DNA from: an uncultured Bacilli bacterium | GTDB taxonomy: Bacteria > Bacillota_I > Bacilli_A > RF39 > UBA660 | Length of the DNA: 64,000 nt | Direction: 5' to 3' | Assembly: GCA_944358255.1 (NCBI GenBank) | Contig: CALVQQ010000002.1 | Location: 3,739 to 67,738, forward strand | Shown here: one piece after another, positions 3,646-27,679 of the stretch | How the letters are laid out: every line of letters begins with the position of its first letter | Position numbering within the stretch: position 1 is the stretch's first letter | Notes under the pieces: generated by a model | The model's input: the letters and a program-made list of their open reading frames with translations, nothing else | What the model was told of the DNA's origin: nothing | The model's database searches: none | Position numbers and translations under genes: made by a program

Positions 3646-4695
3646 TTAAAATTCTTTTGTTAGTTCACCCATTTGACTTGTTGGTATAAATCCAGGTTCA
3701 GCCATTATTACATCTGGTATTCTATTTACTATCGTTGCACATGTTAGTTCAACTGTTTGTGGTTTAGCAATTGTTAAATTTGTAGTTGGTTCACCAATAA
3801 CTTCCCAGTTGTTACAATCGTAATCTTCTTCTGAATATACTTTTCCAATACATTCAGTTTCTAATGTTATGCCTTCTTCGGTTGTCGTTGTTACTATTGC
3901 TCGCATTCCTGTACAGTTTCCAGTTTTAATAGTCATGTTTAATGTACTTGATGTGATGTCGTGGTCGCAAAATGTTGGTATGCATTTTTGACTTTGTTTT
4001 GTTATTGTTAAACCTAATTTATCGCATAACCATCCATTTACATTCCACATATAACTTGGTAAGAATTCTCCATTTTCAATTAGTTTTTGTCTTTCTTCAT
4101 TTGATATATTATCTGCAGCTGCAATTTCTTTTTCAAAATCTTCTTTTGTTAATCCAGCCCCGTGTGCTTTTGCAAGTGCAATTCCATAATCTTCTACATT
4201 ATATGAACTGCTTCCTTTAATAGTTGTTATTTTTTGACTTGCCCCTACAAGAGTTGTAATTAAATTTCCCCAAAAGGCATCTTGATATCCGCTTCCTGTA
4301 ATTGTGCAGTTGTTTTCTTTTGCTAATTTGTCTATTTCCATAGTTAGTTTAGGGGAAGAGTTAAATGGGTAAAATGCTTCTTCACAGGTTGTAATAGCAT
4401 TTATACCTAATTTTGCACATAGTAATAAAGCATCTTTGCAGTCGTTCATTAAACTCATCGTTGTAATAATACAAATATCTGGATTTGATTCTTTTAATAA
4501 TGTTTCTGCTTCAGTAACATTTTTTACTATTGTTCCTGTTTTATCACATCCAATTATTTCTGAAATGTCTTTTCCAATTACGTCTGGATTAATATCTATT
4601 GCACCTACAATTTTGCCACCATTTTCTAAAATGTAGCGCATTATATAGACTGACATTTTTCCACATCCGTATTGTACTACTTTAATGTTTTTCAT
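3646..4695 (-). CDS. DapB-like NAD(P)-binding oxidoreductase (possibly 2,4-diaminopentanoate dehydrogenase family)
   Basis: N-terminal Rossmann motif VVQYGCGKMS and an overall DapB-like layout. The specific function is not resolvable by eye. Confidence 0.45.
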   Translation of the reverse strand: MKNIKVVQYGCGKMSVYIMRYILENGGKIVGAIDINPDVIGKDISEIIGCDKTGTIVKNVTEAETLLKESNPDICIITTMSLMNDCKDALLLCAKLGINAITTCEEAFYPFNSSPKLTMEIDKLAKENNCTITGSGYQDAFWGNLITTLVGASQKITTIKGSSSYNVEDYGIALAKAHGAGLTKEDFEKEIAAADNISNEERQKLIENGEFLPSYMWNVNGWLCDKLGLTITKQSQKCIPTFCDHDITSSTLNMTIKTGNCTGMRAIVTTTTEEGITLETECIGKVYSEEDYDCNNWEVIGEPTTNLTIAKPQTVELTCATIVNRIPDVIMAEPGFIPTSQMGELTKEF

Positions 4696-4845
4696 TTTAT
4701 ACCTTCCTTTCTTATATTTTTATTATAGCATTTATAAGTATTTTTATTTATTTTTACTTTGTTTGTTTACATTTTTTTACTAATTATAGTGGTTATAAAT
4801 ATCACATTTATTTATTTTTCATACATTATTATAGAGGTGAAATGC

Positions 4846-5127
4846 ATGAATGATAGGGTGTTAACTGGAATTGTAATAGATGCTGGGCATGGCGGAGTAG
4901 ATGGCGGAGCTTCAGGAAATGGTATAGTTGAAAAAGATTTAAATTTGTTAATAAGTACTTATATGTATGATCGATTTAGAGAATTAGGTGTGCCAGTTAA
5001 AATGACTAGAACTACGGATGAAACTTTAGATTCATCTGAAAGGGTGGATAGAATTCTTGACGCTTATGGGAATGGGAAAGATGTTATAGTTATTTCTAAT
5101 CACATAAACGCCGGAGGACATACTTAG
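4846..5127 (+). pseudogene. 5' fragment (about 93 aa) of a cwlC-like N-acetylmuramoyl-L-alanine amidase (Amidase_3), interrupted by the inserted element
   Basis: RBS AGAGGTG lies 6 nt upstream of ATG 4846. IVIDAGHGGVDGGASGNG matches the CwlC N-terminus (IDPGHGGSDPGATGNG). The fragment ends ...ISNHINAGGHT*, in the middle of the conserved SIHVNSGGGTG block. Confidence 0.7.
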
Positions 5128-5290
5128 CTCATACAACGATTAAATTTATAAGGGTATTAAGACGGCTATATTTAAACAAAAAGAATTTGTTAATAAAGCT
5201 ATACTAAAATTAAGTTTTTAAACTTAAAAAGGCTGTAAAATAAAGAATTTTTAGTATATTTAACTTCAAATGTTAAAAAACACCAAATTT

Positions 5291-5301
5291 TGCTGTATAA
5301 T
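5291..5301 (+). promoter_or_regulatory. Extended -10 promoter element TGCTGTATAAT upstream of the 576-aa gene
   Basis: TGnTATAAT match 70 bp upstream of ATG 5373. No convincing -35 was seen. Confidence 0.3.
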
Positions 5302-5313
5302 GTATTTAAGAAT

Positions 5314-5356
5314 AGCAGTATCATTCTTTTTTAAGATGGATACTGCTTATTTTTTT
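5314..5356 (+). terminator. Terminator-like hairpin with T-run in the leader of the 576-aa gene (possible attenuator, or a terminator used in the circular form)
   Basis: 9-bp stem AGCAGTATC/GATACTGCT with a 16-nt loop, followed by TATTTTTTT, located between the -10 and the RBS GAGGTG. Confidence 0.35.
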
Positions 5357-5372
5357 GAAGTGAGGTGTAGTA

Positions 5373-7103
5373 ATGGCAAAGAAAAAATATGAAACACAAT
5401 TCAGTATATACAAAGTTGATTATAGTCACTCTGTAAAATATTTAAAAGAGGATCAAGGAATTGAAAGTAAAACATATGAAGAACTAGAAAAAAATATTTT
5501 AGATACAATTAAAGGCATGATTTTAAAAAAAGAAAGAAATGAAGTAGTTGATGTAAGAAATGATTACTTTAAAGGTGTAGTTTTTAGAACTTATCATTAT
5601 CCAACTTGGTATGGTGTGATTAATAGCATCGTAGATGAAAAAATTGATATATCAAATACTCATATTTCTTATGTCTTATCTTATTTAAAAGATGATAATC
5701 TGTTTTTACTAACTGGAGGATTAGGAAGTAATTATATTACAGAATTTACTCAAAAAAATTACGGCTTATATTTATTGCCTAAAATGTTGAAAGAAAATAG
5801 TCCTGTCATAAAATCGGTTTTGGAAAATAAAATGTCTGGCAATAGGCTGTCTAGTAAACATTCAAATAGAAACGTAACAACAATTAATACAGAAAATGAT
5901 ATGAGCTCAATATTTAGAGAACTTTCTTTAGAAATTGATAAAGAAATAATAAATAAATTAGGTATAAATACAGATGAAAATAAAAAGTCAAAGAATTTAA
6001 ATCTTATTGCAAAGGATTCCTTCGTTATAAGAAAATCTATAACAATAGAGAATTTAATGAAGGTTTTAGATCAACTGATAAAGGTTGAAAAAAATAAAGA
6101 TAATTTTTCTTTAGGTTATTTTGTTGATGTGAAAAAGCACGGATATTCTTCAAAAAAATTAAATGAACTTCTTATTAAAATTTTTATTGAAAAGAAGATT
6201 GATAATTTTATTTTAGTAGGGGATGACTATTCAGATTATTGCGTAGGTGGAAATAGATATGTTATTAAAGATGTGGATGAGAAGGTTATATATGAAAAAG
6301 AAAGTCCAATAACAATAGAAGACTTATTTGAAAATTGCCTGCCTGACAATATTACAAAGTCAGCAATAGAAAAATTATTAAAATATAATTTAACTGTTTA
6401 CAACGATACAGATACTATTTTGTTCCCTATAAAACTAAAACAAAGTATACAAGGATACATAGAAAATGAAGAAAAGATTCCTTTTTTTCTCTTTAACGGT
6501 AATTGGTTAATGTTTGATACTAATTATATTGATAACCTTGATAATGAGTATAAGAAAAACTATATTGATTTGATTAAAATAGACAAAAAATTGGCTGATA
6601 TTATTACTAATAAAAATCCTGAATTAACAGAAGATTCATATAATAAAGAATTTTCACAATCTAATGATCTTATAGTTGCACATACTGTTTTAAGCAATAA
6701 TATAGAACTTGCTGATTTAATTTATTTTGATAATGATAATTTATATTTGATACATAACAAGTCAAAATTTCAAGGTAATGGTGCTAGGGATGTATTAAAT
6801 CAGATTTTAACTTCAGCAGAATTTATAAATCACTATCTAATGGAAAAAGATAAAAGAGAAATTTTTGGTAAATATTATCATGATATTATAAAAAAATATC
6901 CCAATAATAATAAAATTAAAACTTTAACAGAAGATGAATTTGTTGACTTATTTAAAAAGCCTAACATATATTATATTGCAGGTTTTATGGAAGGACTTTC
7001 AGATAGCTCTGAATCAAATTATGCCAAGTATATTACTTTGGATGCTAGTAAAAAACTTAAAGAAAAAGGATATAATCTATTATTATTTAATATAAATTAT
7101 TAG
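5373..7103 (+). CDS. Hypothetical 576-aa protein of unknown function; candidate accessory or defence gene on the island
   Basis: Long uninterrupted ORF with RBS GAGGTG and its own promoter. No P-loop, HNH, HEPN or other family signature was recognisable by eye. Confidence 0.75.
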   Translation: MAKKKYETQFSIYKVDYSHSVKYLKEDQGIESKTYEELEKNILDTIKGMILKKERNEVVDVRNDYFKGVVFRTYHYPTWYGVINSIVDEKIDISNTHISYVLSYLKDDNLFLLTGGLGSNYITEFTQKNYGLYLLPKMLKENSPVIKSVLENKMSGNRLSSKHSNRNVTTINTENDMSSIFRELSLEIDKEIINKLGINTDENKKSKNLNLIAKDSFVIRKSITIENLMKVLDQLIKVEKNKDNFSLGYFVDVKKHGYSSKKLNELLIKIFIEKKIDNFILVGDDYSDYCVGGNRYVIKDVDEKVIYEKESPITIEDLFENCLPDNITKSAIEKLLKYNLTVYNDTDTILFPIKLKQSIQGYIENEEKIPFFLFNGNWLMFDTNYIDNLDNEYKKNYIDLIKIDKKLADIITNKNPELTEDSYNKEFSQSNDLIVAHTVLSNNIELADLIYFDNDNLYLIHNKSKFQGNGARDVLNQILTSAEFINHYLMEKDKREIFGKYYHDIIKKYPNNNKIKTLTEDEFVDLFKKPNIYYIAGFMEGLSDSSESNYAKYITLDASKKLKEKGYNLLLFNINY

Positions 7104-7420
7104 TAGTTTATGAAGGTATAGAATAATGCATTTACATTTTATAGACTGCAAAACAAAGAAAAATAATATATTGATTATCTTGGCTTAATAATTAATTAAT
7201 ATTTCAATGATGAGATAATATAAATAATTTAAAGTATTAAAAATGTGAATTAAATGATACTAAATATAAGTTTAATTTTCCCAAAGAATTATAGTAATTT
7301 GAGTTGATGAAAAATCACTCTTTTTTTTTATGAGATTTGTTGAATATAAATTAATTTTAATGTATAATTATATTAACTATTAAGCTAATAAGCATATATG
7401 TTAATATAATGGAGGAATTT

Positions 7421-7789
7421 ATGGCTAAAATCACTTTAGGAAATTTTATTGTCAAAAAGAGAAAGAATATGAAATTGTCGTCTAGGCAATTAGCTTTAGC
7501 ATGCGAAGTAACACCAGCATATATGAATGATATAGAAAAAAGTAAAAGAATCCCATCTTCTGAGGTATTAACAAGAATAGCTATGAAATTAAAGTTGGAT
7601 GAAAAAGAAGTTTATCAATTATTTGATTTAGCAGTTGATGATAATAAAGGTAAGGTTTCTTATGATATTGCAGAATATATAATGAATAATGATGAATTGC
7701 GACAATGTATTAGATATGTAATAAAGATTAAAGATAATAGTATATGGAAAAAAATGTTAAACGAAATTAATCAGGAGGGCCAATTATGA
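7421..7789 (+). CDS. XRE-family HTH transcriptional regulator, a putative controller (C) protein of the R-M module
   Basis: HTH segment SSRQLALACEVTPAYMNDIEKSKRIPS. GGAGG RBS at 7411-7415 favours ATG 7421 over the track start at 7409. The stop overlaps the m5C methyltransferase start (ATGA at 7786-7789). Confidence 0.7.
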   Translation: MAKITLGNFIVKKRKNMKLSSRQLALACEVTPAYMNDIEKSKRIPSSEVLTRIAMKLKLDEKEVYQLFDLAVDDNKGKVSYDIAEYIMNNDELRQCIRYVIKIKDNSIWKKMLNEINQEGQL

Positions 7790-8793
7790 AAAAGTATACA
7801 TATATAGATTTATTTGCAGGAGCGGGAGGAATGTCATTAGGTTTTAATAATGCTGGCTTTAAAAATCTTTTAGCAATTGAATGTAATAAAGATTTTGCTG
7901 AAACTTATAAAAAAAATTTTCCTAAACATAATTTGCTAATTGACGATATAAAAAATGTAACTGAAAAACAAATTCGTGATATAATTAAAAATGAGAGGGT
8001 AGATGTTATAATAGGTGGACCACCTTGTCAAGGATTCTCAATTGCAGGAAATATTGGTAGAAATTTTATTGATGATGATAGGAATAGGTTATTTAAAGAG
8101 TTTGTAAGATTTGTTAAAATTATTAAACCTAAAATATTTGTTTTAGAAAATGTAGCTGCTATGGAAAGACACAATAAAGGAAGGACTATAAAAGAGATAG
8201 TTTCATCTTTTGCAGCAATTGGTTATGATATAAAGTACAAAGTTCTTAATGCTGTTAATTATGGTGTTCCACAAGAAAGAAGAAGAATATTTATTGTTGG
8301 TACACTTGGAGAAAATAGATTTGAATATCCTAATAAAGATAATAAGATTGTAACTATAAAGGAAGCAATTGATGATTTGCCTAAATTAGGTAATGGAGAA
8401 AATAGTAATATTCCTAATCATACAGCTATGAAACACTCTGCCCAAATGTTAGAAAAAATGAGTTACGTTTCAGATGGTGGTAATAGAAATGATATACCAG
8501 AAAAATTAAGACCTAAGTCGGGAGACAGTAGAAAATATATAAGATATAATAGTAAAAAACCGTCTTTTTGTGTTACTGGAGATATGCGAAAGATATTTCA
8601 TTATAGTCAAAATAGAGCTTTAACATGCAGAGAATTAGCTAGACTGCAGACTTTTCCAGATACATTCATATTTGTAGGTAATGCCGGCAAAGTTCAACAG
8701 CAAATTGGTAATGCAGTTCCAGTATTATTGGCCAATAAAATAGCTTTACAAGTAAAAGAGGTGTTAGATCATGAGCAAATATCCGAAGATTAA
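7786..8793 (+). CDS. DNA (cytosine-5)-methyltransferase
   Basis: Motif I DLFAGAGGMSLGF, motif IV GGPPCQGFS, motif VI FVLENV, and motif X QIGNAVPV. Confidence 0.9.
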   Translation: MKKYTYIDLFAGAGGMSLGFNNAGFKNLLAIECNKDFAETYKKNFPKHNLLIDDIKNVTEKQIRDIIKNERVDVIIGGPPCQGFSIAGNIGRNFIDDDRNRLFKEFVRFVKIIKPKIFVLENVAAMERHNKGRTIKEIVSSFAAIGYDIKYKVLNAVNYGVPQERRRIFIVGTLGENRFEYPNKDNKIVTIKEAIDDLPKLGNGENSNIPNHTAMKHSAQMLEKMSYVSDGGNRNDIPEKLRPKSGDSRKYIRYNSKKPSFCVTGDMRKIFHYSQNRALTCRELARLQTFPDTFIFVGNAGKVQQQIGNAVPVLLANKIALQVKEVLDHEQISED

Positions 8794-9784
8794 TTATATT
8801 GGAAATAAAAATAAGTTAACTGATTGGATAGTGGATAATTTTCCATTTAAAGAGGGGACTGTTTTAGATCTTTTTTGTGGTGGCTGCTCAGTATCTTATG
8901 CTTTAAAGGAAAAAGGTTATAGAGTATATTCAAATGATGCTTTATATTCAAATTTTGTTTTAGCAAAAGCTATTATAGAAAATAGTAATGTAATCTTAAA
9001 AACTGAAGATTTTGATTTCGATATCCCGAAAAAAGAAATATTAAAAAAGTATAAAGAAATTAGTTTTTTAGAAAATAGACTATATTTTCCAAATGAAGTA
9101 GAAGAATTAGCTGAGTTAGTATGCAAATCAGAAAAATTAGAAAACTATAAGAAATATTTATTTTTATCTTTAATTAGAAGATCGATGATTAGAAAAATAC
9201 CATATTCAAGGATGAATGTTCCTTGGGATCAAATTGTTAAATTAAGGGATGAAGATTATAGTTATGCTAAATATAAAAGAAGAAGAGCGTATCATAATCT
9301 GCCTTTTATAGACCATATTTATGATAATTTAGATAATTATAACGATTCTGTGTTTAATAATAATCAGGATAATAAAGCATTTAATAAAGATGCATTTGAA
9401 ATGATAAATAAATTGACTGAAAAGGTTGATATTATTTACATGGATCCACCATATCCTGCTACGATGAATAAATATGGAGATTTTTATGGAATGTATGATA
9501 GTATTTTTAATAAAGAGATTAATTATATAAATTTTTCAGAGAACAATAAATTTTTGGAAAATTTAGAAAAATTAATTGTGAAATGTTTGCCTAAAACTAA
9601 ATATATAGTCATTAGTGAAAACAATAAAACAAAACCATCAATTTCAGAGATTAATAATATGTTAAGTAAATATGGTAAAGTAGAAATAAAAGAAAAAAAG
9701 CATCAATACAAAGTTACAAATAAGGAAAATAAAAATGAAACTGTTGAAGTGTTAATTATTTTGCAAGTTAAAGAAAACAAGTAA
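8771..9784 (+). CDS. DNA N6-adenine methyltransferase, D12/Dam-like class (DPPY)
   Basis: N-terminal YIGNKNKL (Dam WAGGK-like), FCGGCSV motif I, and DPPYPAT motif IV. It overlaps the upstream methyltransferase by 23 nt. Confidence 0.7.
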   Translation: MSKYPKINYIGNKNKLTDWIVDNFPFKEGTVLDLFCGGCSVSYALKEKGYRVYSNDALYSNFVLAKAIIENSNVILKTEDFDFDIPKKEILKKYKEISFLENRLYFPNEVEELAELVCKSEKLENYKKYLFLSLIRRSMIRKIPYSRMNVPWDQIVKLRDEDYSYAKYKRRRAYHNLPFIDHIYDNLDNYNDSVFNNNQDNKAFNKDAFEMINKLTEKVDIIYMDPPYPATMNKYGDFYGMYDSIFNKEINYINFSENNKFLENLEKLIVKCLPKTKYIVISENNKTKPSISEINNMLSKYGKVEIKEKKHQYKVTNKENKNETVEVLIILQVKENK

Positions 9785-9812
9785 TCACTAGTCTTGATTA
9801 CTTGTTTTCTTT
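9770..9812. terminator. Bidirectional intrinsic terminator between the convergent methyltransferase and restriction endonuclease genes
   Basis: Perfect 18-bp inverted repeat AAAGAAAACAAGTAATCA / TGATTACTTGTTTTCTTT with a 7-nt loop, spanning both stop codons. Confidence 0.7.
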
Positions 9813-10973
9813 ATCAATTTCATCTTTATAAAGATTATCAACTTCTTCTTTACATTTTAATGCTTTTTCTTTGAATTTATTTCTATGCCATTCTAAATAT
9901 TTTAATCTGTCGGGATTAAGTAATTTTTTATCTAGTTTAAAAGTACTAATCCACTGTAATATATCAATATCATGGATTTCATAGTCATTAACCAGTACCA
10001 TACCATCATTATCAAATGAAATATCATATTTATCAAAATATGCATCTACTTGAGTAGATAGTAAAAGCCCGTTATTATAGTCGTATGCTTCATCAATGTT
10101 TCCCTCAGACAAACATATACTGGAGTCTTTTATATGTGAATGTACCAATCCTTTCAACTCTTTTTTTTGAATATAACAAACTTTTTTTCCAAAAAATTTT
10201 ATAGACTCTTTATCTAAGCCATCTTTGTAAATACTATAAAGAATAGGATCTCTTTTTGTATCAACTACTATATTGCTTGGATCAATGAACCAAACTCCCG
10301 TATCTTTATTTGCAGAAATATTTGGCATAAGGTTTAAAAAGTAAATTAGATAATTAATTTGATTATATTTCTTTTTGTCAAATTTAATTGTAGAAGCATA
10401 TTTATATTGTTCTTCTAATTCATTTTTTGTCAAATATCCCTTACTGATTTGTTCAATAGGAGTAACCATTAATGCAATTACATCAATTTTTGATAATTTC
10501 TTTTCTGGGTGATATACTAACGTTTTTAAAAGAAAATCAATTTCTTTTCGATTAGTATTATCTTTTGAATAAGAAGAACAAAAACTAGATGAAGTGTAAA
10601 AGATTTCTGAAAATATATTTCTTTTTTGATTCTGGTCGTCAGCAGATAAAAATTTCCTTGCAAGTTTATGATAACCATTATAAAAAGGCTTAACAAATCC
10701 TAACTTTATAAATTGATTTATTGATTTTCTTGTAGAAGCTTGATCTCGTTTTTGATAAATTCTATTTATTTTTTCTTGAAGTTCTTTATTTAATTTTTCA
10801 TGTTTACAATTTTCACTTAAAATTTCTCTGTTTTCATCAATAAAATCTAAAATTATTCTAAGTGTATTATTAAATCTTAAGTCAAAGATATCAATATATT
10901 CAAGAGTAAACGACCAATATTTATCATATTGCTGATTTTCAATTTTCTTTTTGGTACGAAATAATTTGCTCAT
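9798..10973 (-). CDS. HNH-family restriction endonuclease (HNH_2-like C-terminal domain)
   Basis: C-terminal LVHSHIKDSS...NGLLLSTQVDAYFDKYDISFD matches the AHI...NGLLL...H/D..FD pattern of HNH restriction enzymes. It is convergent with the two methyltransferases. Confidence 0.6.
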   Translation of the reverse strand: MSKLFRTKKKIENQQYDKYWSFTLEYIDIFDLRFNNTLRIILDFIDENREILSENCKHEKLNKELQEKINRIYQKRDQASTRKSINQFIKLGFVKPFYNGYHKLARKFLSADDQNQKRNIFSEIFYTSSSFCSSYSKDNTNRKEIDFLLKTLVYHPEKKLSKIDVIALMVTPIEQISKGYLTKNELEEQYKYASTIKFDKKKYNQINYLIYFLNLMPNISANKDTGVWFIDPSNIVVDTKRDPILYSIYKDGLDKESIKFFGKKVCYIQKKELKGLVHSHIKDSSICLSEGNIDEAYDYNNGLLLSTQVDAYFDKYDISFDNDGMVLVNDYEIHDIDILQWISTFKLDKKLLNPDRLKYLEWHRNKFKEKALKCKEEVDNLYKDEIDKENK

Positions 10974-11238
10974 GTTATTTCACCTCTATTAAATTATAAC
11001 ATGAAATTAACAAAATTAATAATTTCTAATAGCAAAACTAAAAAATTAGGCTAGTTTGAGCACAAAAAAGCATTTTTTTGCATCACTTAGTCATTGACTT
11101 CTATTGGTCAAGTGGTAAAATATAGTAAAATGAAATAATTAGCTGGTGAGAACTATGTCTATATTATTTCATTTTTTTGTTATCTTTATCTCGGTTTAAT
11201 AACTGGGATTTTTTTGTGCACAAATTTTGATAACAAAT

Positions 11239-11437
11239 CCTACTATCCTACTATTTTTTTGTATTTTTCAAAAGTAGGATGGTATATAAGATATTAATTA
11301 TCTTATAAAATAAGAATAAAACTACCGATGATCCTTAATATCAACCTATATAGTAGGATTAATTTCGTAAGTACGAAATAAGAATGGCACCATTAAATTT
11401 CCTTAGTTTATAAGGAATTTTTTAGTTTATGGTGCCA
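11239..11437. promoter_or_regulatory. Palindrome-rich intergenic region with a repeated 8-mer, lying between the restriction endonuclease gene and the HTH/recombinase genes
   Basis: CCTACTAT tandem pair at 11239-11254. The inverse AGTAGGAT occurs at 11273-11280 and 11352-11359. Palindrome ATAAGATA-TTAAT-TATCTTAT at 11286-11306. TTCGTA-AG-TACGAA at 11364-11377. 10-bp inverted repeat ATGGCACCAT/ATGGTGCCAT at 11384-11393 and 11428-11437. Confidence 0.3.
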
Positions 11438-11512
11438 TCTTCTTATGCTCCTAATTTATAATTTGATATTTTTAAAGGGAAATTCATCCTAATTAGAAAG
11501 GAGGTATTATAA

Positions 11513-11776
11513 ATGGATTATGAACAATATATAAAAGTACCATTAGCAGTAATAACAGATAAAAATCTTAAATCTAGTTCTAAAGTTTTATTTAGCTTAT
11601 TGATAATACTAGTACAACAAGAAGGATATTGTTTTGCTGGAAATGATTATTTAGCTGAAAAGTTAAATACAAGTAATAGAACTATTTCAAGATTATTAAA
11701 AGAATTATCTGACATAGGTTATATTAAAATGGAATTTAAACATAAATTTCAAAGAAAAATATATATTATTAAATAG
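11513..11776 (+). CDS. Small HTH-domain protein of 87 aa (regulator, or candidate recombination directionality factor)
   Basis: HTH-like segment GNDYLAEKLNTSNRTISRLLKELSDIGYI. RBS AAAGGAGG. It lies upstream of the recombinase. Confidence 0.55.
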   Translation: MDYEQYIKVPLAVITDKNLKSSSKVLFSLLIILVQQEGYCFAGNDYLAEKLNTSNRTISRLLKELSDIGYIKMEFKHKFQRKIYIIK

Positions 11777-12204
11777 CCAAAAATATCATAACTTTAGACA
11801 ATGTTATTTAAGTCAATGTACATGTTTTTCTTTTTCAATGGTACTCTGTGTCTACAATAATATAATAAATATAATATAAAAAATTTAATTATATAAATTT
11901 AAAATATTTAAATAAGTTTTAAATATTAACATACTTAATCAAAATTAATTAAGGAAAGGAGTGGATATAAGTATGAAAAAAATATCAATAATGAATAATT
12001 TAAACATAAATTTAAATAGGTGGTTTAAATATGGAAGGAGCCTATTTGAATAATATTTCATTTAAAGATCTTATTTTAAAATATCTTATCGAAGAGATAA
12101 TAAAAGAAACAAAAGGAGAATTATCTAATTAATGATTTGCATATTTAATTTTATGATGCTATCATGGATGAGTCTTAATACCCGATTAAAAGAAGGAGGT
12201 AAAA

Positions 12205-13872
12205 GTGTATAATAAATCGGGAATAGATTTCAATGTAGGAATCTATATAAGATTATCTCAAGAAGATAAAGATAAAGATAAAAAATATGAATCTGATAGT
12301 GAAAGTGTAATTAATCAAAGAGAATTATTAACTAATTATGTTAAAAATAATAATTTTAACTTAATAGGAGAATATGTTGATGATGGATATTCTGGCACTG
12401 ATTTTGAAAGACCTGGTTTTCAAAAATTAATTGAAGATATAGAAGAAAAAAAGATTAATTGTGTAATAGTAAAAGATTTATCAAGATTAGGTAGAGATCA
12501 TATTAAGACAGGGTATTATATGGAAACATATTTTCCTGAAAAGAACGTAAGGTTTATATCTATATTGGAATCATACGATAGTTTTAAAAATCAAGCTAGT
12601 AATGATTCTTCAACATTTATAATTGCATGTAATGATTACTATAGTAAACAAAATTCTATTAAAATTAGAAATGTATTAAATGAAAAAAGAAAAAGTGGCA
12701 AATTTGTAGGAAGTTTACCATGCTTTGGATATATGAGAGATCCTGAAGATAAGGGACATTTAATACCAAACCCAGAAACTGCTCCTATAGTTAAACAAAT
12801 ATTTGAATGGAGAAAAAATGGTATTGGTCCATCTAGAATAGTTACTATGCTAAACGAAAAAGGATATCCAACACCTAGTGGATATAAAAAAACAAATTAT
12901 TCTACTAGGCTAATAGTAAGAGATACATGGAACATTTCTTCTGTAAAAAAGATATTAAGCAATAGAATATATACTGGAGATATGGTTCAACATACTCAAA
13001 CTAAAGTTAATTATAAATCTAAGAAAAAAATCACACTAGACCAAAGTATGTGGATGATAGTAGAAAATACACATGAAGCATTAGTTGATAAAGAAACATT
13101 TAAATATATTTCGAATTTAATAAAACAAAATAAAAAAGATGTTAGGCCTAAAAACAGAAGAATAATTAGGGATTTAGAAGGACTTCTATTTTGTAAAGAG
13201 TGTGGTAACAGATTAAGTGTTTTATATAGAAAAAATTTAGATTACTGGAGTGTTAATTGCAATAGATACTCTAGAGACCCATTAAGAAAAAGATGTGAGC
13301 CACACTTTTTTCCTTATAATTATTTAGAAGATCAAATAGTAGAAAAAATAAAATCAAACATAAAAATAAAAATTGAAAATTTAAATATAGAAGAATTAAA
13401 TAAGAGAGTTGCTAGTGAAGTACGAAAGCAAACTAAAGATATAAATAAAAATATAAGTTCTTTAATGAGTGAAAAAGAACAGATAACAAGTAGATTAACT
13501 TCATTATATGAAGATAAATATAATGGTATTATTAATGCAGATACTTATATGGAATTAGCAAAACCCTTTGAAGAAAAGTTACACCAAATTAATGAAAGCA
13601 TTAACAATGATAAAATAAGGGAATATGAAATAAAAAATAAATTAAAAGAATTACCTGATTATACCAAAAAAATAAAAAAGCTATTAGATTTAAATAAGCC
13701 TAGAAAAGAATTAATACATACATTAGTAGATAAAATAGTGATAGATAAAAATAGAATTATAACGATTAAATATAAATATGGTGTGATACCAGACTGTACG
13801 TTTGAATATCAAAATTTAAACTTAGCTCGTAACCCTTATGGTAGAAAAGGAAAGAATCAATATAATAAATGA
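12205..13872 (+). CDS. Large serine recombinase (resolvase/invertase catalytic domain plus recombinase and zinc-ribbon/coiled-coil C-terminal region)
   Basis: N-terminal VGIYIRLSQED catalytic serine motif and DLSRLGRD. 555 aa. C-terminal Cys cluster CKECGN...CNRYS. GTG start with GGAGG RBS. Confidence 0.9.
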   Translation: MYNKSGIDFNVGIYIRLSQEDKDKDKKYESDSESVINQRELLTNYVKNNNFNLIGEYVDDGYSGTDFERPGFQKLIEDIEEKKINCVIVKDLSRLGRDHIKTGYYMETYFPEKNVRFISILESYDSFKNQASNDSSTFIIACNDYYSKQNSIKIRNVLNEKRKSGKFVGSLPCFGYMRDPEDKGHLIPNPETAPIVKQIFEWRKNGIGPSRIVTMLNEKGYPTPSGYKKTNYSTRLIVRDTWNISSVKKILSNRIYTGDMVQHTQTKVNYKSKKKITLDQSMWMIVENTHEALVDKETFKYISNLIKQNKKDVRPKNRRIIRDLEGLLFCKECGNRLSVLYRKNLDYWSVNCNRYSRDPLRKRCEPHFFPYNYLEDQIVEKIKSNIKIKIENLNIEELNKRVASEVRKQTKDINKNISSLMSEKEQITSRLTSLYEDKYNGIINADTYMELAKPFEEKLHQINESINNDKIREYEIKNKLKELPDYTKKIKKLLDLNKPRKELIHTLVDKIVIDKNRIITIKYKYGVIPDCTFEYQNLNLARNPYGRKGKNQYNK

Positions 13873-13970
13873 TTTATCACTATTAATTTAGTGATTTTTT
13901 TATATAGCTAATTTGGTATTTTCGACTTTTGGGTTTATAATGAATTTAATCAAAGGAAAGGAGGAGTACT

Positions 13971-14222
13971 ATGAATCGAGAATATAATGAGAATATGAAT
14001 AAAATTTTTATTGATGGATTAAAAATATACTTAGAATCACATCTAAATGAAAAAAATAAAAAGGTATATAAAGCAGTGGAATCTTCAGTTAATTTTTTAG
14101 AGTCAACAACAAAATTAACTCCAGAAGAATCGAGAGAATATCAAGATATTATAATAAAAATAGTAGGTATTGATGTTATTCAAAGGGTATTTAATAATGT
14201 AACAACTGGTAGTATACGATGA
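13971..14222 (+). CDS. Hypothetical 83-aa protein at the right edge of the island (candidate recombination directionality factor)
   Basis: ORF with RBS AGGAGG that ends about 15 bp before the predicted attR junction. No recognisable domain. Confidence 0.4.
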   Translation: MNREYNENMNKIFIDGLKIYLESHLNEKNKKVYKAVESSVNFLESTTKLTPEESREYQDIIIKIVGIDVIQRVFNNVTTGSIR

Positions 14223-14231
14223 ACGAGCTAA

Positions 14232-15377
14232 TCTTGTGGTGGAGATGGTGCTGAAGTAATATATGCTCTTAGAAATACTAGTACTTTATCTTCTAAAATA
14301 CTTAATGAGTTAGAAAAAGAAGGTCAAAATATTAGAAAAAATTATCAACAAAGATTGCCAAGTAATCCTTCAAAAGATTATTATTTTATTCATAGAGAAA
14401 CGCCTAATACTGAAGCAATAATTGTTGAATATGGTTTTTTAGATAGTTCTAAAGATGATGTTAATCAATTAAAAAATAATTATAAAGATTATGCGGAAGC
14501 CGTTGTAAGAGCCGTTATGGATTATAAAAATTTAAATTATATAGCGCCTGTAGATAGTGGATATTATACGGTACAGAAAGGTGATAGTTTGTGGAGTATA
14601 GCAAATAAATATGGTATTACAGTAGATGAATTAAAAAAACTTAATAATTTAAGTAGTAATATTATAAATGTAGGGCAGACTTTAAAAGTCCAAAAAGAAA
14701 ATGAAATTGCGCCAAGCGATTATCTAATTTATACGGTACAGAAAGGCGATAGCTTGTGGAGCATAGCAAATAAGTATGATACAACGGTTGAAACTATAAA
14801 GAAACTCAATAATTTAAGCGGAACAACTTTACAAATAAATCAACAATTATTAATTCCTAAAGAAGAGGATTTAGATATAAACGTTGGCGAAGATAGTCAA
14901 ATTATCTATAAGGTTAAAAGTGGCGACAGTTTATGGAAAATTGCCAATAGTTATGGTATAACAGTAGATGAACTAAAAAAAGCAAATAATTTATCATCTG
15001 ATTTATTAAGCATTAATCAAGAACTTATTATTCCTGTTAAAACAACGACTGTTGAGCCTGATGAAGGAGAAGAAATTGATGAGATTAAATACGTTGTAGT
15101 TAAGGGTGATAATTTGTACAGTATAGCTAATAAATATAATGTTACAGTCGATGAAATAAAAGAAGCAAATAAGTTATCTTCAAATATTTTAAGTATTGGT
15201 CAAATTTTAGTAATTCCTGGCACAAAAGATTATGCTAATTATACTGTACAAAAAGGTGATAGTTTATGGAAAATTGCTAATAAATATGGTGTTACTGTTA
15301 ATGATATAATGAAAGCAAACAATTTAAATAGCAGTAATTTATCTATTGGACAAGAATTAATAATTCCAACAAAATAA
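14232..15377 (+). pseudogene. 3' fragment of the cwlC-like amidase: the rest of the Amidase_3 domain plus five LysM repeats
   Basis: The frame opens at 14232 (SCGGDGAEVIYALRN...), continuing the Amidase_3 alignment (GGGTGFESYIY in CwlC). Five LysM units follow (Y.V..GDSLW.IA.KY..TV...). The M at 14355 in the ORF track is internal. Confidence 0.7.
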
Positions 15378-15400
15378 AAAATGTGATTAATTCACATTTT
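15378..15400. terminator. Bidirectional terminator hairpin between the amidase 3' fragment and the convergent sleB-like gene
   Basis: 9-bp stem AAAATGTGA/TCACATTTT flanked by A and T runs. Confidence 0.5.
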
Positions 15401-15823
15401 TTAGTGTAATTCTTTACAAACTCCTGGATCAGGTTGGTAAAAACAATGGCTTTTATATCTTCCAGAAAGTGTTTGACCATACCATGTGGTTTTGCAAGAT
15501 GATGTGCCAGAGGGAGCGTAAAACCATAGAGCATTTGTTGCCGGATGGTAATACTCACCTTTTAATACTCTTTCTGCAAGTGATTTCTCTTTTGTGGTTG
15601 CAGAACTGTAAAACAATGAATTATTTATACCACTAAATTGATTGTTTTGATATATTACATCAGTAATTGTCCTTAAATTTGAAAAGGTTAAGCAATCTGC
15701 GATGGCCCTGTTAACTATAACATTTCCTACCATCAGCATGCCTAAGTCGCCTTCACTTAACGCTTCTGCTCTCATTAATCTTGCACACAAATCAAGTTCT
15801 TTATTAGTGTAATTAATTAGCAT
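15401..15823 (-). CDS. SleB-type cell wall hydrolase (Hydrolase_2 catalytic domain; spore cortex-lytic family)
   Basis: LCARLMRAEA...GMLMVGNVIVNR...YQNNQFSG...WYG pattern of the SleB C-terminal domain. Confidence 0.75.
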   Translation of the reverse strand: MLINYTNKELDLCARLMRAEALSEGDLGMLMVGNVIVNRAIADCLTFSNLRTITDVIYQNNQFSGINNSLFYSSATTKEKSLAERVLKGEYYHPATNALWFYAPSGTSSCKTTWYGQTLSGRYKSHCFYQPDPGVCKELH

Positions 15824-15922
15824 TTATATCACCTATTTAATAATATGTAAATAAAATGATTTTGACATAAAAATACATCATTGAAAAAGGTATTTTTATA
15901 TGATATAATCTTTCCATCTGTT

Positions 15923-15996
15923 AGGGGTATAATATAATGGTAGTATTAGCGTCTCCAAAACGCTCCGTTCGGGTTCGAATCCTGATACCCCTGCCA
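15923..15996 (+). tRNA. tRNA-Trp (anticodon CCA)
   Basis: Cloverleaf with acceptor AGGGGTA/TACCCCT, anticodon stem AGCGT/ACGCT with loop CTCCAAA, T-loop TTCGAAT, and 3' GCCA. Confidence 0.85.
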
Positions 15997-25726: not shown

Positions 25727-27679
25727 TTGCAAAAAGATATATTTGATGATCTTGTAGTTGTGAAAAGAAGTGGTCAAAGAGTTAATTTTAATAGTTATAA
25801 AATAGCTGTTGCAATTAAAAGCGCCTTTGATAGTGTTTATGATAATAGTGATGAATCTAATATTAATAAAGTTTATGAAAAAGTTTTAAAATATATAGAA
25901 AATAATTATGAGAATAGAAAAACAATAAATGTTGAAGATATTCAAGATATTATTGAAGCTATGTTACAGGAAGACAAATATTTTGAAGTTTATACGGCTT
26001 TTAGTGAATATAGGAAAAAAAGGGCTATTAGTAGAAAAATATTTACTCAAAAACAACAGCATAAATTTTTAAAAGCTATTGAAAAAATAAACGATGATAA
26101 TGTTTTACTAAGTGATAATACGTTTAAACTTAATGATGTGGTTGTTAAATATGGGATGACGGTTATTAATGAAATAACAAAATCTTATATAATAGATAAT
26201 AAATATCTTAGAGAGCATGATGAAGGAAATATTTTTATTCATGATATGTGTAATTTTTCTTTAGGTAGATTATCTAATATTCATATCGATATGACTGAAT
26301 ATTTAAGAAATAATTCTTTTGATAGTTTTATTTACTATTTGAAAAGTTTAGGTACTGAAGTAAATGGCGAAATTAGTATTCCAGCTTTGGATAAGTTGTT
26401 AGAACAATATTGCTTGCAGACATTTAAAAAGATTTATATTGATTATTTGTCTAAGTATTTGAAAGTATCCGGATTTGATCAATATATTAATTTAAATAAG
26501 ATAATTGAAATGGTTAATAAAGAATCAGATATAATGTTTGAGATGTCTAACTATTCAATATATATGTTATCTTCTCAAGTTGAAAATATATTTAGTCAAG
26601 CTTATAAAGATAGTGTTGATAAATGTAAAAATGACTTTTATTTGAATATTAAAAATCTATTTTGTACTTTGGATGCTTCAAATAGGAAATATTCATTTAG
26701 TTTTGGTACTAGTTCTAATTATATAGGTTCATGTTTAAATAAAATAATTATTGAAGTTTTAAATGAGTTAGATAGATTAAGTAATGTTTCTGCAACATTT
26801 AAATATAATCAGATTAATAAAGATTATTTGAAAGAAATTTGTTCTTTAGTACTTAATGGAAAAAATGTTCTTATTGCTAATCTAAATGCTTCATATAACA
26901 AGAATATAAATGAAGTTGAATATTTCTCTGATGGTGTTAGAATTTTTGAAAATAATAATGATGATGAGAGTGGTTCTGTTGGTAGAATGATGATTGCAAT
27001 TACTTCTATTAATTTTGCTAGATTAGGATTAGAATTTGAAAATGATACAATAAAGAATTTTTATAATAAATTAGATTTTGCGTTAGAAACTGTTAAAAAT
27101 GAATTGTTGTTGACTTTTGAAACCATTGGAAATAAGAATAAAGATAATTATGATTATTTGTTTAATAATAACGTAATGAGTGATCAAAAACTTGAAAATG
27201 GGCAAAAGATAAGAAAAGTTATAAAAAATGGTGATTTATTAATCGGTGTGATAGGTTTAAAAGAGTGCGTTAATCTTTTGGAAAAGGATGAGAGTAAGCA
27301 ATTATCTTTGCTTAGAGATATATTAAAGTTTTTAAATTATAAGTGTTTAAACTATCGTGAAGAAACAAGATTAAATTTTTATATTAACGCGCCTTATGAA
27401 AGTTTGGCTGCGAAGGAATTGATGACTTTGGATAAATCTATTTATGGAATAAGAAAAGAAATAAGAAATAAATATAGTTATGATTCTGTATATAATTTAC
27501 CCATTTTAAAAGATGATTATAAGAGTATTGGTGAAATACAAAAGTTTATCAGTGGCGGAAGTGTTTATGAAATAAAGTTAAATAAGAGTATGAGTATTAA
27601 TAAACTTGAAGAAATGATACTTACTTTGTTTGATAATGATATAGGATTGTTAAAGTTTAGAAGTAAGGAAGTGACTTGA
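25727..27679 (+). CDS. NrdD-like paralog: ATP-cone plus class III RNR-like core, lacking the catalytic cysteines and glycyl-radical tail
   Basis: N-terminal ATP-cone (VVVKRSGQRVNFNSYKIAVAIKSAF) and NIFIHDM resembling NrdD DIHLHDL. No CC thiyl motif, no Zn ribbon, no RxxGY. TTG start with GGAGGTG RBS. Confidence 0.55.
   Translation: MQKDIFDDLVVVKRSGQRVNFNSYKIAVAIKSAFDSVYDNSDESNINKVYEKVLKYIENNYENRKTINVEDIQDIIEAMLQEDKYFEVYTAFSEYRKKRAISRKIFTQKQQHKFLKAIEKINDDNVLLSDNTFKLNDVVVKYGMTVINEITKSYIIDNKYLREHDEGNIFIHDMCNFSLGRLSNIHIDMTEYLRNNSFDSFIYYLKSLGTEVNGEISIPALDKLLEQYCLQTFKKIYIDYLSKYLKVSGFDQYINLNKIIEMVNKESDIMFEMSNYSIYMLSSQVENIFSQAYKDSVDKCKNDFYLNIKNLFCTLDASNRKYSFSFGTSSNYIGSCLNKIIIEVLNELDRLSNVSATFKYNQINKDYLKEICSLVLNGKNVLIANLNASYNKNINEVEYFSDGVRIFENNNDDESGSVGRMMIAITSINFARLGLEFENDTIKNFYNKLDFALETVKNELLLTFETIGNKNKDNYDYLFNNNVMSDQKLENGQKIRKVIKNGDLLIGVIGLKECVNLLEKDESKQLSLLRDILKFLNYKCLNYREETRLNFYINAPYESLAAKELMTLDKSIYGIRKEIRNKYSYDSVYNLPILKDDYKSIGEIQKFISGGSVYEIKLNKSMSINKLEEMILTLFDNDIGLLKFRSKEVT

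What the first reader, a model, noticed from the sequence alone, without database searches (positions are those of the whole stretch)
4846..15377. cwlC-like spore/mother-cell amidase gene split by a 9.1 kb serine-recombinase element (skin-like intervening element)
The 93-aa ORF ending at 5127 and the frame that opens at 14232 are the two halves of one Amidase_3 plus 5xLysM protein. The split falls inside the conserved HVNSGGGTG block: N-fragment ...HINAGG-HT*, C-fragment SC-GGDGAEVIY. Between the halves lies an element whose only recombination gene is a large serine recombinase at its right end. This is the architecture of the skin (sigK) and SPbeta (spsM) elements, which interrupt mother-cell sporulation genes and are removed by a serine recombinase to rebuild the gene during sporulation. 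The host is clearly a spore former (cotJ, sleB-like hydrolase next door), and CwlC-type amidases are mother-cell expressed. A cwlC-type target is not among the commonly cited intervening-element hosts, to my knowledge. The alternative reading is a simple inactivating insertion.
Basis: partly seen in the sequence, partly recalled or inferred. Interest (0 to 1): 0.8.

Follow-up and report, generated by a model that had tools for sequence, protein, structure and literature searches.

The report
Recombinase island splitting a sporulation amidase
A 9.1 kb mobile island carrying a restriction-modification system sits exactly in the middle of a cell-wall amidase gene of an uncultured gut spore-former, and sequence evidence suggests, without proving, that its serine recombinase cuts it out during sporulation to rebuild the gene.

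Summary
ORF 4846-5127 and the frame opening at 14232 are the collinear halves of one Amidase_3 + 5xLysM gene. A 9,122-bp element lies between them. The crossover is the dinucleotide GG, at 5116-5117 and 14238-14239. Joining there gives a 469-aa ORF reading HINAGGGDGAEVIY, as in intact orthologs.

The case is not unique. About 28 of 80 related species genomes are split at the same GG. So are 77 of 77 evaluable metagenome contigs that carry a related recombinase. At least six attP types occur. The elements are 6-17 kb, lack phage genes, carry variable restriction/defence cargo and move between species.

Two in-silico results favour the skin-like reading. The amidase has a conserved sigma-K-type promoter. 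A 33-aa ORF just upstream of the recombinase carries a CATA-type -10 with the same geometry as the host's cotJ, cwlJ-like and amidase promoters.

Excision itself was not seen.

Verdict: a new member of the skin/SPbeta/gin kind, with a new target gene and host lineage.

The parts
4820..4848 (+). Promoter-like element of the amidase gene: -10 CATACATTA (4820-4828), ribosome-binding site AGAGGTG, start ATG at 4846
   Evidence: CATAnnnTA is present upstream of 45 of 60 orthologs, against 0.068 expected per region. The full AC-N16-17-CATAnnnTA is present in 29 of 60, against 0.007 expected. In the window itself the AC lies at N14, so only the -10 fits.
4846..5127 (+). 5' fragment of the amidase gene (93 aa plus stop). 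Host sequence ends at 5117; the last two codons and the stop are element DNA.
   Evidence: Amidase_3 profile positions 1-78; collinear with intact orthologs; dN/dS 0.07 against the intact allele in L001.
5090..5143 (+). attL, with crossover dinucleotide GG at 5116-5117
   Evidence: by comparison with the empty attB in L001 and with attR.
5118..14239 (.). The 9,122-bp intervening element (non-phage island driven by a large serine recombinase)
   Evidence: GC content is similar to the flanks. No phage structural genes were found.
5373..7103 (+). 576-aa cargo ORF of unknown function
   Evidence: No Pfam, PADLOC or PHROGs hit. No relative in any other locus of the genome set (L001-L083).
7409..10973 (.). 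Complete type II restriction-modification module: controller HTH (7409-7789, +), C5 cytosine methyltransferase (7786-8793, +), D12-class methyltransferase (8771-9784, +), HNH-type restriction endonuclease (9798-10973, -)
   Evidence: REase_II E 1.9e-64; MTase_II E 2e-113 and 1e-87. The same module is found in the L078 and L086 elements.
11513..11776 (+). 87-aa HTH_36 protein. It resembles only the N-terminal winged-helix domain of phage or plasmid replication initiators. It is conserved upstream of the recombinase in att families A and B.
   Evidence: No CATA-type promoter lies in front of it. A sigma-70-like TTGACT-16-TAAAAT lies at 11094-11121, but such matches are not enriched in the region.
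12005..12132 (+). CATA-type -10 (CATAAATTT, 12005-12013), ribosome-binding site TAGGTGG, and a 33-aa ORF (12031-12132, MEGAYLNNISFKDLILKYLIEEIIKETKGELSN). This is the candidate directionality factor, or a leader peptide of the recombinase operon.
   Evidence: The motif is present in 15 of 18 genome loci and 54 of 64 metagenome loci, against 0.015 expected. An analogous small ORF lies upstream of the recombinase in families A, B, C and D. In the conserved core, synonymous changes outnumber replacements (this estimate is biased).
12205..13872 (+). Large serine recombinase, 555 aa, with catalytic serine in the motif YIRLSQED
   Evidence: Resolvase, Recombinase, Zn_ribbon_recom. (R16, S18 and the zinc-ribbon cysteines are invariant in 11 relatives). 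(phrog_95 integrase). (TnpX and SprA are the nearest solved structures).
13971..14222 (+). 83-aa ORF in the variable cargo slot between the recombinase and attR
   Evidence: It is present only in the near-identical L059 module. Other elements carry unrelated genes of 94-414 aa in this position. There are no family hits.
14212..14265 (+). attR, with crossover dinucleotide GG at 14238-14239
14240..15377 (+). 3' fragment of the amidase gene: the rest of Amidase_3 plus five LysM domains. The frame is open from 14232.
   Evidence: Amidase_3 profile positions 85-172; five LysM.; dN/dS 0.02-0.03 against both intact and split alleles of the same species.
15401..15873 (-). Convergent neighbour: a 140-aa SleB/CwlJ-type Hydrolase_2 gene with its own CATA-type promoter (CATATTATT starting at 15847 on the minus strand). 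This is context only, conserved next to the amidase in L001-L003.

Best explanation
The element is a small, non-phage integrative island whose only mobility gene is a large serine recombinase (LSR).

Shown:
- The LSR integrated the island by conservative site-specific recombination at a GG dinucleotide. That dinucleotide lies inside the codons for the conserved HINAGG|GDGAE loop of an Amidase_3 + 5xLysM cell-wall hydrolase gene.
- The first two zinc ligands of the enzyme are thereby separated from the C-terminal half of the catalytic domain (which holds the catalytic glutamate, by analogy with CwlV) and from the wall-binding domains.
- attL and attR are intact, so precise excision would restore a 469-aa ORF.
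- A whole clade of related recombinases is dedicated to this one site in a lineage of uncultured gut Bacilli. Their attP arms have diverged.
- The islands carry variable restriction-modification and defence-like cargo and move between species.

Inferred:
- The amidase is a late mother-cell gene driven by a sigma-K-type promoter, and is functionally analogous to CwlC of B. subtilis.
- During sporulation a mother-cell sigma factor (E or K) fires the CATA-type promoter in front of the 33-aa ORF and the recombinase gene.
- The small protein acts as a recombination directionality factor, allowing the LSR to recombine attL with attR.
- The island leaves as a circle in the terminally differentiated mother cell, and the rebuilt amidase gene is expressed there.
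- The forespore keeps the island, so it is inherited at no cost to the host. This would explain why the site is such a popular docking place.
For: Anatomy:
- The fragments are collinear.
- The join is in frame and identical to intact orthologs.
- The crossover core is 2 bp and non-palindromic, and the attP arms are symmetric at 16 of 24 positions.
- The LSR has all three domains and an invariant catalytic serine.

Recurrence:
- About 28 of 80 species-representative genomes are split at the identical position, with at least six P-arm families.
- All 77 evaluable metagenome contigs carrying a recombinase at least 67% identical have the amidase 3' fragment downstream, broken at the same GG.

Fragment integrity:
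- All 22 5' fragments seen lack stop codons.
- 70 of 73 complete 3' fragment ORFs are intact.
- Within the window's species, dN/dS is 0.02-0.03 whether split or intact alleles are compared.
- The recombinases themselves are under purifying selection (dN/dS 0.04-0.3).

Target gene timing:
- AC-N16-17-CATAnnnTA occurs upstream of 29 of 60 orthologs, against 0.007 expected per region. The -10 alone occurs in 45 of 60.
- That this matches the B. subtilis sigma-K consensus is from my own knowledge.
- cwlC and cwlH are late mother-cell lysis hydrolases (PMC517825).

Recombinase timing:
- The composite motif CATAnnnT-N3-6-RBS-start occurs only six times in the 64-kb window, against 0.23 expected.
- The six sites are the amidase, cotJ, the cwlJ/sleB-like gene, a double-LysM protein, an ABC transporter, and the small ORF in front of the LSR.
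- The motif precedes the small ORF in 15 of 18 genome loci and 54 of 64 metagenome loci, against 0.015 expected.

Precedent:
- In the C. difficile skin element the recombinase is constitutive and a small sigma-E-dependent factor confers mother-cell specificity. Its transcription start lies 14 bp before the start codon (PMC5025042).
- gin is a non-phage element carrying a restriction-modification system, and it is excised from gerE during sporulation (PMC5595907).
Against: - No excised form was found. The predicted attP junction is absent from IMG/VR and from the metagenome collection.
- Synonymous divergence of the recombinases (0.03-0.9) is far below that of the host amidases (above 1). The window's right-hand module is 96% identical at the DNA level, and its recombinase 99% at the protein level, to that of a host whose amidase is only 55% identical. 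Insertions may therefore be recent. The intact fragments and low dN/dS then say little about selection after insertion.
- The site is polymorphic within the species: empty in L001, family A in the window, family C in L003.
- The promoter assignment rests on consensus matching in a 25% GC genome. The small-ORF -10 (CATAAATTT) fits sigma-E better than sigma-K, has no clear -35, and could be a variant sigma-A -10.
- The window's own amidase promoter has the AC at N14 rather than N16-17.
- A 33-aa directionality factor would be smaller than the 72-aa CD1234, and nothing ties it to the recombinase beyond position and conservation.
- Sporulation of this uncultured host is predicted, not observed.
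Confidence: 0.55

Rival explanations
1. Plain gene-disrupting insertion. The amidase site is simply a conserved and tolerated landing pad for a clade of LSR islands. Carriers lack a working amidase, perhaps buffered by other hydrolases. Excision happens only sporadically, for transfer, and has no link to sporulation.
For: - The elements are much younger than the host species splits and move between species (L059).
- Site occupancy is polymorphic within a species.
- Several genomes carry a second amidase paralog next door.
- No attP was found.
- LSR elements in general integrate inside genes, because they cannot duplicate the target end (my own knowledge).
Against: - The target has a conserved sigma-K-type promoter.
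- The recombinase operon carries the same rare promoter geometry as the host's cotJ, cwlJ-like and amidase genes, in several att families.
- About a third of species representatives carry an insertion in a gene that is otherwise retained across the lineage, and the fragments are almost never decayed.
- The neighbouring paralogs have Arg in place of the zinc-ligand His (SNRLN), so they are unlikely to substitute.
Confidence: 0.3
2. A reversible switch that is not developmental (active lysogeny type). Excision is triggered by stress, phage attack or population signals in vegetative cells. This toggles amidase activity or mobilises the defence cargo.
For: - The cargo is restriction/defence-like and highly variable.
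- Sigma-70-like promoters lie upstream of the HTH_36 gene (11094-11121) and directly before the LSR (12136-12165, in a block conserved across families).
- Precedents are A118/comK and the yin element, which is excised at all growth phases.
Against: - Sigma-70-type matches are not enriched over shuffles (26 against 30.6).
- The amidase has no signal peptide and a sporulation-type promoter, so it is unlikely to matter in vegetative cells.
- No repressor/antirepressor or SOS-type module was recognised.
Confidence: 0.12
3. Artefact, or two naturally separate genes. The split would be an assembly chimera, or the two ORFs would be independent genes in this lineage.
For: None beyond the fact that most comparison sequences are metagenome assemblies.
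Against: - The same junction, to the base, appears in more than 100 independent contigs from different studies and assemblers.
- Intact single-gene orthologs exist at 97% identity.
- The fragments cover complementary halves of one domain.
Confidence: 0.01

Closest known systems
skin elements in sigK (B. subtilis SpoIVCA/Skr; C. difficile CD1231/CD1234)
   Same: - An LSR-bearing element interrupts the coding frame of a mother-cell sporulation gene.
- The recombinase gene lies at one end of the element.
- Precise excision rebuilds the gene.
- In C. difficile a small sporulation-controlled factor gives directionality and cell specificity (PMC5025042). This matches the small ORF with a CATA-type promoter seen here.
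   Different: - The target is a cell-wall amidase, not a sigma factor.
- The elements are 6-17 kb and have no phage remnants, whereas B. subtilis skin is 48 kb (my own knowledge).
- Many recombinase/attP subfamilies share one site across dozens of species.
- The elements are clearly mobile between species.
- The window LSR matches SprA only at E 1.8e-16, and the nearest phage LSRs are at most 32% identical.
- Excision is untested.
gin element in gerE of Bacillus cereus ATCC 10987
   Same: - It is a non-prophage gene-intervening island.
- It carries a restriction-modification system.
- It uses serine recombinase(s) and is excised during sporulation (PMC5595907).
- This is the closest match in element type.
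   Different: - gin is 28.6 kb with three serine recombinases and recJ. Here there is a single LSR in a 9.1 kb element.
- The target gene and the host lineage differ.
- Here the cargo slots are hypervariable across a large population of elements.
SPbeta prophage in spsM (SprA/SprB)
   Same: - An LSR splits a late mother-cell gene.
- The directionality factor has a sporulation-specific promoter, and the element stays in the spore genome (PMC4191935).
- SprA is among the nearest solved structures (9dxd).
   Different: - SPbeta is a full, inducible 134-kb phage (size from my own knowledge).
- The elements here have no virion, lysis or packaging genes.
yin (yabG), vfbin (spoVFB) and vrin (spoVR) intervening elements
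   Same: They have the same logic of sporulation genes interrupted by recombinase-bearing elements.
   Different: - They are prophage-like.
- yin is unique to one strain, whereas the amidase site is occupied in roughly a third of related species.
- No amidase target is named in the four intervening-element papers searched for it (PMC4191935, PMC7192596, PMC10747680, PMC5595907) or in the three full-text searches.
B. subtilis CwlC/CwlH (mother-cell lysis amidases), for the target gene
   Same: - N-terminal Amidase_3 domain with no signal peptide.
- C-terminal peptidoglycan-binding repeats.
- Predicted sigma-K-type promoter (PMC517825).
   Different: - It has LysM x5 instead of SPOR repeats.
- Orthology is not demonstrated. 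The best curated family is CwlD, far below its cut-off (78.6 against 221.6 bits).
- The function is inferred.

Membership tests
Large serine recombinase integrative element | The recombinase has an N-terminal resolvase catalytic domain with the nucleophilic serine, a recombinase domain and a zinc-ribbon domain | tested here: met
   (PF00239, PF07508, PF13408). (R16, S18 and C330/C333/C352/C364 invariant in 11 relatives).
Large serine recombinase integrative element | attL and attR share only a 2-bp non-palindromic crossover core. attP has imperfect inverted arms. The target site is not duplicated. | tested here: met
   The core is GG. attP arm symmetry is 16/24 in the window and L011, and 11/24 in L002 and L018. 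attB symmetry is 5-9/24.
Sporulation gene-intervening element (skin / SPbeta / vfbin / gin type) | The element interrupts a coding frame, and a precise join restores the intact gene | tested here: met
   (469-aa ORF identical in layout to intact orthologs).
Sporulation gene-intervening element (skin / SPbeta / vfbin / gin type) | The target gene is expressed in the mother cell during sporulation | tested here: inconclusive
   There is in-silico support only. A sigma-K-type promoter is conserved upstream of orthologs (29/60 full motif, 45/60 -10 alone). The window's own copy has the -10 but an off-spacing -35. No expression data exist.
Sporulation gene-intervening element (skin / SPbeta / vfbin / gin type) | The host forms endospores | tested here: inconclusive
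   cotJB/cotJC and a SleB/CwlJ-like hydrolase are in the window. RF39 is predicted to sporulate (PMC10868615). The host is uncultured, and its placement in RF39 is from memory of GTDB names.
Sporulation gene-intervening element (skin / SPbeta / vfbin / gin type) | The recombinase or a directionality factor is under sporulation-specific control | tested here: inconclusive
   A CATA-type -10 with the geometry of the host's cotJ, cwlJ-like and amidase promoters precedes a conserved small ORF upstream of the LSR. This is a consensus match only. The function of the small ORF is unknown.
Sporulation gene-intervening element (skin / SPbeta / vfbin / gin type) | The element is excised as a circle in the mother cell during sporulation and retained in the spore | not testable with these tools
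   Searches for the attP junction found nothing. This neither supports nor refutes a rare, mother-cell-only event.
Prophage or prophage remnant | Virion, packaging or lysis genes | tested here: not met
   PHROGs gives only integrase, transcriptional regulator and a replication-initiator N-terminal domain. The 26 complete elements are 6.3-16.8 kb with restriction/defence cargo.
CwlC-type mother-cell lysis amidase | N-terminal Amidase_3 domain without a signal peptide | tested here: met
   The domain starts at residue 9 of the protein (read directly from the sequence).
CwlC-type mother-cell lysis amidase | C-terminal SPOR repeats and orthology to B. subtilis CwlC | tested here: not met
   The protein has five LysM domains instead. 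There is no curated equivalog. The best NCBIfam hit is CwlD, below its cut-off. So it works like CwlC but is not filed as CwlC.
Type II restriction-modification system (cargo) | Methyltransferase(s), restriction endonuclease and controller protein in one cluster | tested here: met

The most novel reading that the evidence does not exclude
This reading has two parts.

A shared docking site for defence cargo:
- The amidase codons HINAGG|GDGAE would be a lineage-wide germline-safe docking site.
- A dedicated clade of serine recombinases uses it to shuttle hypervariable anti-phage and restriction cargo between species of uncultured gut spore-formers.
- The islands are kept in the spore (germline) and removed in the mother cell (soma) under sigma-E/K control, so they cost the host nothing.

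A new kind of directionality factor:
- Directionality would be supplied by a roughly 30-aa peptide encoded just upstream of the recombinase.
- It would be smaller than the 72-aa CD1234 and, from my own knowledge, than other described directionality factors for a large serine recombinase.
- It would give a compact excision module for genome engineering.
Probability: 0.3. Interest if true: 0.75.

Novelty: new member of a known kind. Interest (0 to 1): 0.62.

Why it matters
Interrupted sporulation genes that are rebuilt by recombinase-driven excision are known for only six targets: sigK, spsM, spoVFB, spoVR, gerE and yabG. Almost all come from cultured Bacillus or Clostridium.

If the mechanism holds, this case adds three things:
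- It adds a cell-wall amidase as a seventh target, in an uncultured, genome-reduced gut lineage whose ability to sporulate is itself only predicted.
- The scale is unusual. One dinucleotide is occupied in about a third of related species and in hundreds of gut metagenome contigs, by elements with diverged attP sites and interchangeable restriction/defence cargo. This links two fields: developmental DNA rearrangement and defence-island mobility.
- It offers a natural panel of orthogonal recombinase/attP pairs that share one attB, each with a candidate mini directionality factor.

It also gives testable markers of active sporulation in gut metagenomes, in the form of attB and attP junction reads.

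Tried and rejected
1. Crossover at the shared GGAG. My first join there gave a 467-aa ORF two residues shorter than every intact ortholog. It was replaced by the GG core.

2. The 83-aa ORF (13971-14222) as directionality factor. It lies in a variable cargo slot and is present only in the near-identical L059 module. It has no CATA-type promoter.

3. The HTH_36 gene (11513) as directionality factor. It is conserved in families A and B, but it looks like a truncated replication-initiator DNA-binding domain and has no sporulation-type promoter. It is left open as a regulator.

4. A co-divergence test, meant to show that selection acted on split halves after insertion. It failed because the elements are far younger than the host splits. 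Within-species dN/dS is low but has little power.

5. Searches for the excised form. The attP junction was absent from IMG/VR and from the metagenome contigs.

6. Search for phage relatives. A single-protein scan gave only hits at 26-27% identity. A profile scan found L086 to be another island at the amidase site inside a contig labelled viral, and L088 also holds an amidase 3' fragment. Neither shows a phage.

7. Strict B. subtilis sigma-E two-block pattern. It gave no hit in the region 4601-15900.

8. Sigma-70 scan of the recombinase region. Matches were not enriched over shuffles.

9. L127 as a possible alternative target or free form. It is just cargo running to the contig end.

10. Structure prediction of a recombinase-peptide complex.

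Full report
**1. The observation**

The region is about 25% GC, like its flanks. The ORF at 4846-5127 encodes 93 aa that match Pfam Amidase_3 profile positions 1-78 of 174. The frame that opens at 14232 and ends at 15377 matches positions 85-172 and then five LysM domains. The two pieces are therefore complementary halves of one catalytic domain.

A search with the joined protein found many uninterrupted orthologs. One is 97% identical and 469 aa long (P0001), and dozens lie at 50-85% identity. All read ...SNHINAGGGDGAEVIY... across the break.

My first join, at a shared GGAG, was two residues short. Comparison with the empty site on contig L001 shows that attL follows the host sequence through ...GCCGGAGG and attR resumes at GGTGGAGAT... 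The overlap, and so the crossover, is the dinucleotide GG at 5116-5117 and 14238-14239. The element is 9,122 bp. The corrected join gives a 469-aa ORF.

The inferred attP is cgatgaacgagctaatcttgt-GG-acatacttagctcatacaacg. Its arms match in inverted orientation at 16 of 24 positions around a non-palindromic 2-bp centre. This is the expected layout for a large serine recombinase (LSR) site.

**2. Contents of the element**

Reading left to right:
- A 576-aa ORF with no hit in Pfam, PADLOC or PHROGs.
- A complete type II restriction-modification module: controller HTH, C5 methyltransferase, D12-class methyltransferase, and an HNH-type endonuclease on the opposite strand.
- An 87-aa HTH_36 protein that resembles only the N-terminal DNA-binding domain of phage or plasmid replication initiators.
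- A 33-aa ORF at 12031-12132.
- A 555-aa LSR at 12205-13872, with Resolvase, Recombinase and Zn_ribbon_recom domains.
- An 83-aa ORF with no family hits.

No virion, packaging, lysis or conjugation gene was recognised. The nearest phage recombinases are at most 32% identical. The nearest solved structures are TnpX and SprA of SPbeta.

**3. The split is widespread**

A scan of one genome per species returned 80 loci from uncultured gut Bacilli. Record titles include Clostridium sp. CAG:628 and CAG:1000, Mycoplasma sp. CAG:611, Coprobacillus sp. CAG:605 and Candidatus Coprovivens.
- About 28 of the 80 loci hold only the 3' part of the gene at that place. Every one diverges from the host sequence at exactly the same GG.
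- The sequences abutting the GG fall into at least six unrelated P-arm families.
- Where the flank is available, a recombinase 50-99% identical to the window's lies upstream on the same strand.

A profile of these recombinases then found 430 relatives in metagenome contigs.
- Of the best 80, 77 have the amidase 3' fragment 0.07-6.5 kb downstream. The other three run out of contig.
- All 77 break at the same GG.

This recombinase clade is therefore dedicated to one target.

**4. What kind of element**

Twenty-six elements with both ends in hand measure 6.3-16.8 kb.
- The only universal gene is the recombinase.
- A C5 methyltransferase is present in 16 of the 26.
- The rest is highly variable, with 73 singleton proteins.
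- Recurrent cargo includes Fic, a metallophosphoesterase, a Schlafen-like helicase, and HNH and MutH/Sau3AI-type endonucleases.
- The slot between the recombinase and attR holds a different gene in nearly every element, including a protein kinase.
- The window's restriction-modification module recurs with a different recombinase subfamily in L078 and L086.

These are modular, non-phage cargo islands. The gin element of B. cereus is the closest described type.

**5. The elements are mobile**

- Synonymous divergence between recombinases is 0.03-0.9. That of the corresponding host amidase fragments is saturated, above 1.
- The window's right-hand module (HTH_36, small ORF, LSR, 83-aa ORF) is 96% identical at the DNA level to that of L059. 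The two recombinases are 99% identical at the protein level. The L059 host amidase is only about 55% identical to the window's.
- Within the window's own species the site can be empty (L001), hold a family A element (the window) or hold a family C element (L003, whose fragment cluster has 49 members).

The elements therefore spread horizontally and are not fixed. This weakens any argument from the integrity of the fragments, although that integrity is striking:
- All 22 5' fragments seen lack stop codons.
- 70 of 73 complete 3' fragment ORFs are intact.
- dN/dS within the species is 0.02-0.03 whether split or intact alleles are compared.

**6. Is the target a mother-cell gene?**

The protein has no signal peptide; the domain starts at residue 9. 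It has C-terminal wall-binding repeats, like CwlC. It is not a curated equivalog of any named amidase: the best hit is CwlD at 78.6 bits against a 221.6-bit cut-off.

Upstream regions of orthologs are otherwise unalignable, yet they share tttCATAnAnTA-N3-TAGGTGA-N5-ATG.
- The full pattern AC-N16-17-CATAnnnTA is present in 29 of 60 orthologs, against 0.007 expected per region. I recall this pattern as the B. subtilis sigma-K consensus.
- The -10 alone is present in 45 of 60, against 0.068 expected.
- The window's copy has CATACATTA at 4820-4828, but its AC is at N14.

In B. subtilis, cwlC and cwlH are among the last mother-cell genes switched on, and they lyse the mother cell (PMC517825).

The window also holds cotJB and cotJC and a SleB/CwlJ-type hydrolase. 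The order RF39 is predicted to form spores (PMC10868615). I believe these CAG genera belong to RF39, from memory of GTDB.

**7. Is excision tied to sporulation?**

This is the inferred step. The composite motif CATAnnnT-N3-6-RBS-N3-10-start occurs only six times on both strands of the 64-kb window, against 0.23 expected from first-order Markov sequences. The six sites are:
- the amidase;
- the cotJ operon;
- the cwlJ/sleB-like gene;
- a 109-aa double-LysM protein, which has a perfect AC-N16;
- an ABC transporter;
- the 33-aa ORF in front of the recombinase.

A small ORF of 27-39 aa lies directly upstream of the recombinase in families A, B, C and D. The examples share a loose FKD...L(I/V)xxYL pattern. 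The motif precedes the small ORF in 15 of 18 genome loci and 54 of 64 metagenome loci, against 0.015 expected.

In the conserved core of the small ORF, changes are mostly synonymous (pN/pS 0.12). That figure is biased, because I chose the region by its amino-acid conservation.

A conserved TTTGCA-18-TATCAT with an upstream TG lies between the small ORF and the recombinase. If real, it would give the C. difficile arrangement: a constitutive recombinase plus a small factor under sporulation control (PMC5025042).

The second is not conserved.

**8. What is missing**

The predicted attP junction was not found in the viral or metagenome collections. An event confined to dying mother cells would be rare in assemblies, so this is weak evidence either way. 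Promoter calls in AT-rich DNA are consensus matches. The host is uncultured.

**9. Comparison and novelty**

The published interrupted sporulation genes are sigK, spsM, spoVFB, spoVR, gerE and yabG. The papers read for this name no amidase target, and three full-text searches found no report of one.

This locus fits that kind of system in every feature that can be tested in silico. It is new in four respects:
- the target gene;
- the host lineage;
- its prevalence;
- the population of interchangeable defence-cargo islands sharing one attB.

I rate it a new member of a known kind. My confidence in the mother-cell excision mechanism is moderate (0.55). The main rival, a tolerated disrupting insertion, stands at about 0.3.

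Noticed in passing
window 52899-53253 (+): A 109-aa protein made of two LysM-like repeats. It is preceded by a perfect AC-N16-CATATATTA-N3-TAGGTGA, the best sigma-K-type promoter match in the window. It is a likely spore coat or cortex protein.
   Followed up: partly
L070, L072, L078, L079, L039, L065 (coordinates): Several genomes carry a second, more distant amidase paralog close to the split copy. It is always intact, but it reads SNRLN instead of SNHIN, so the zinc-ligand His is replaced by Arg. It may be a catalytically dead paralog.
   Followed up: no
L136 (C fragment from about 1843) and L149 (C fragment from about 3339): Two 3' fragments end prematurely inside a LysM repeat with the same foreign tail, GDT(L/I)FMGNNE(Y)*. 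This suggests a second, different insertion site within the LysM-coding region of the same gene.
   Followed up: no
L059 6794-10272 against window 11036-14512: The right-hand module (HTH_36, small ORF, LSR, 83-aa ORF) is 96% identical at the DNA level between two hosts whose amidases are only about 55% identical, while the left-hand cargo differs. This points to recent transfer between species plus module shuffling.
   Followed up: partly
window 5373-7103 (+): The 576-aa cargo ORF has no hit in Pfam, PADLOC or PHROGs and no relative in any of the 83 genome-set loci tested (L001-L083). It is an orphan, possibly a defence gene.
   Followed up: partly
window 15923-15996 (+): A tRNA-Trp (CCA) gene lies between the cwlJ/sleB-like gene and the next ORF, about 550 bp downstream of the amidase gene.
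   Followed up: yes
window 38507-39596 (+): In the cotJ operon the first ORF is 175 aa, with the CotJB domain only at residues 98-171, so it may be a fused cotJA-like/cotJB gene. It is followed by cotJC (Mn_catalase). The promoter CATATTATA starts at 38482.
   Followed up: partly
L042 8364-9905 and 18707-20257: Two more distant recombinases (30-36% identical), each with an upstream small ORF, lie on a contig whose amidase is intact. One ends about 100 bp before the amidase start. Relatives of this clade may therefore use other sites nearby.
   Followed up: no
window 25727-30732 (+): Two NrdD-type anaerobic ribonucleotide reductase genes lie in tandem around an activase gene. The second has a C-terminal glutaredoxin/thioredoxin-like extension.
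   Followed up: no
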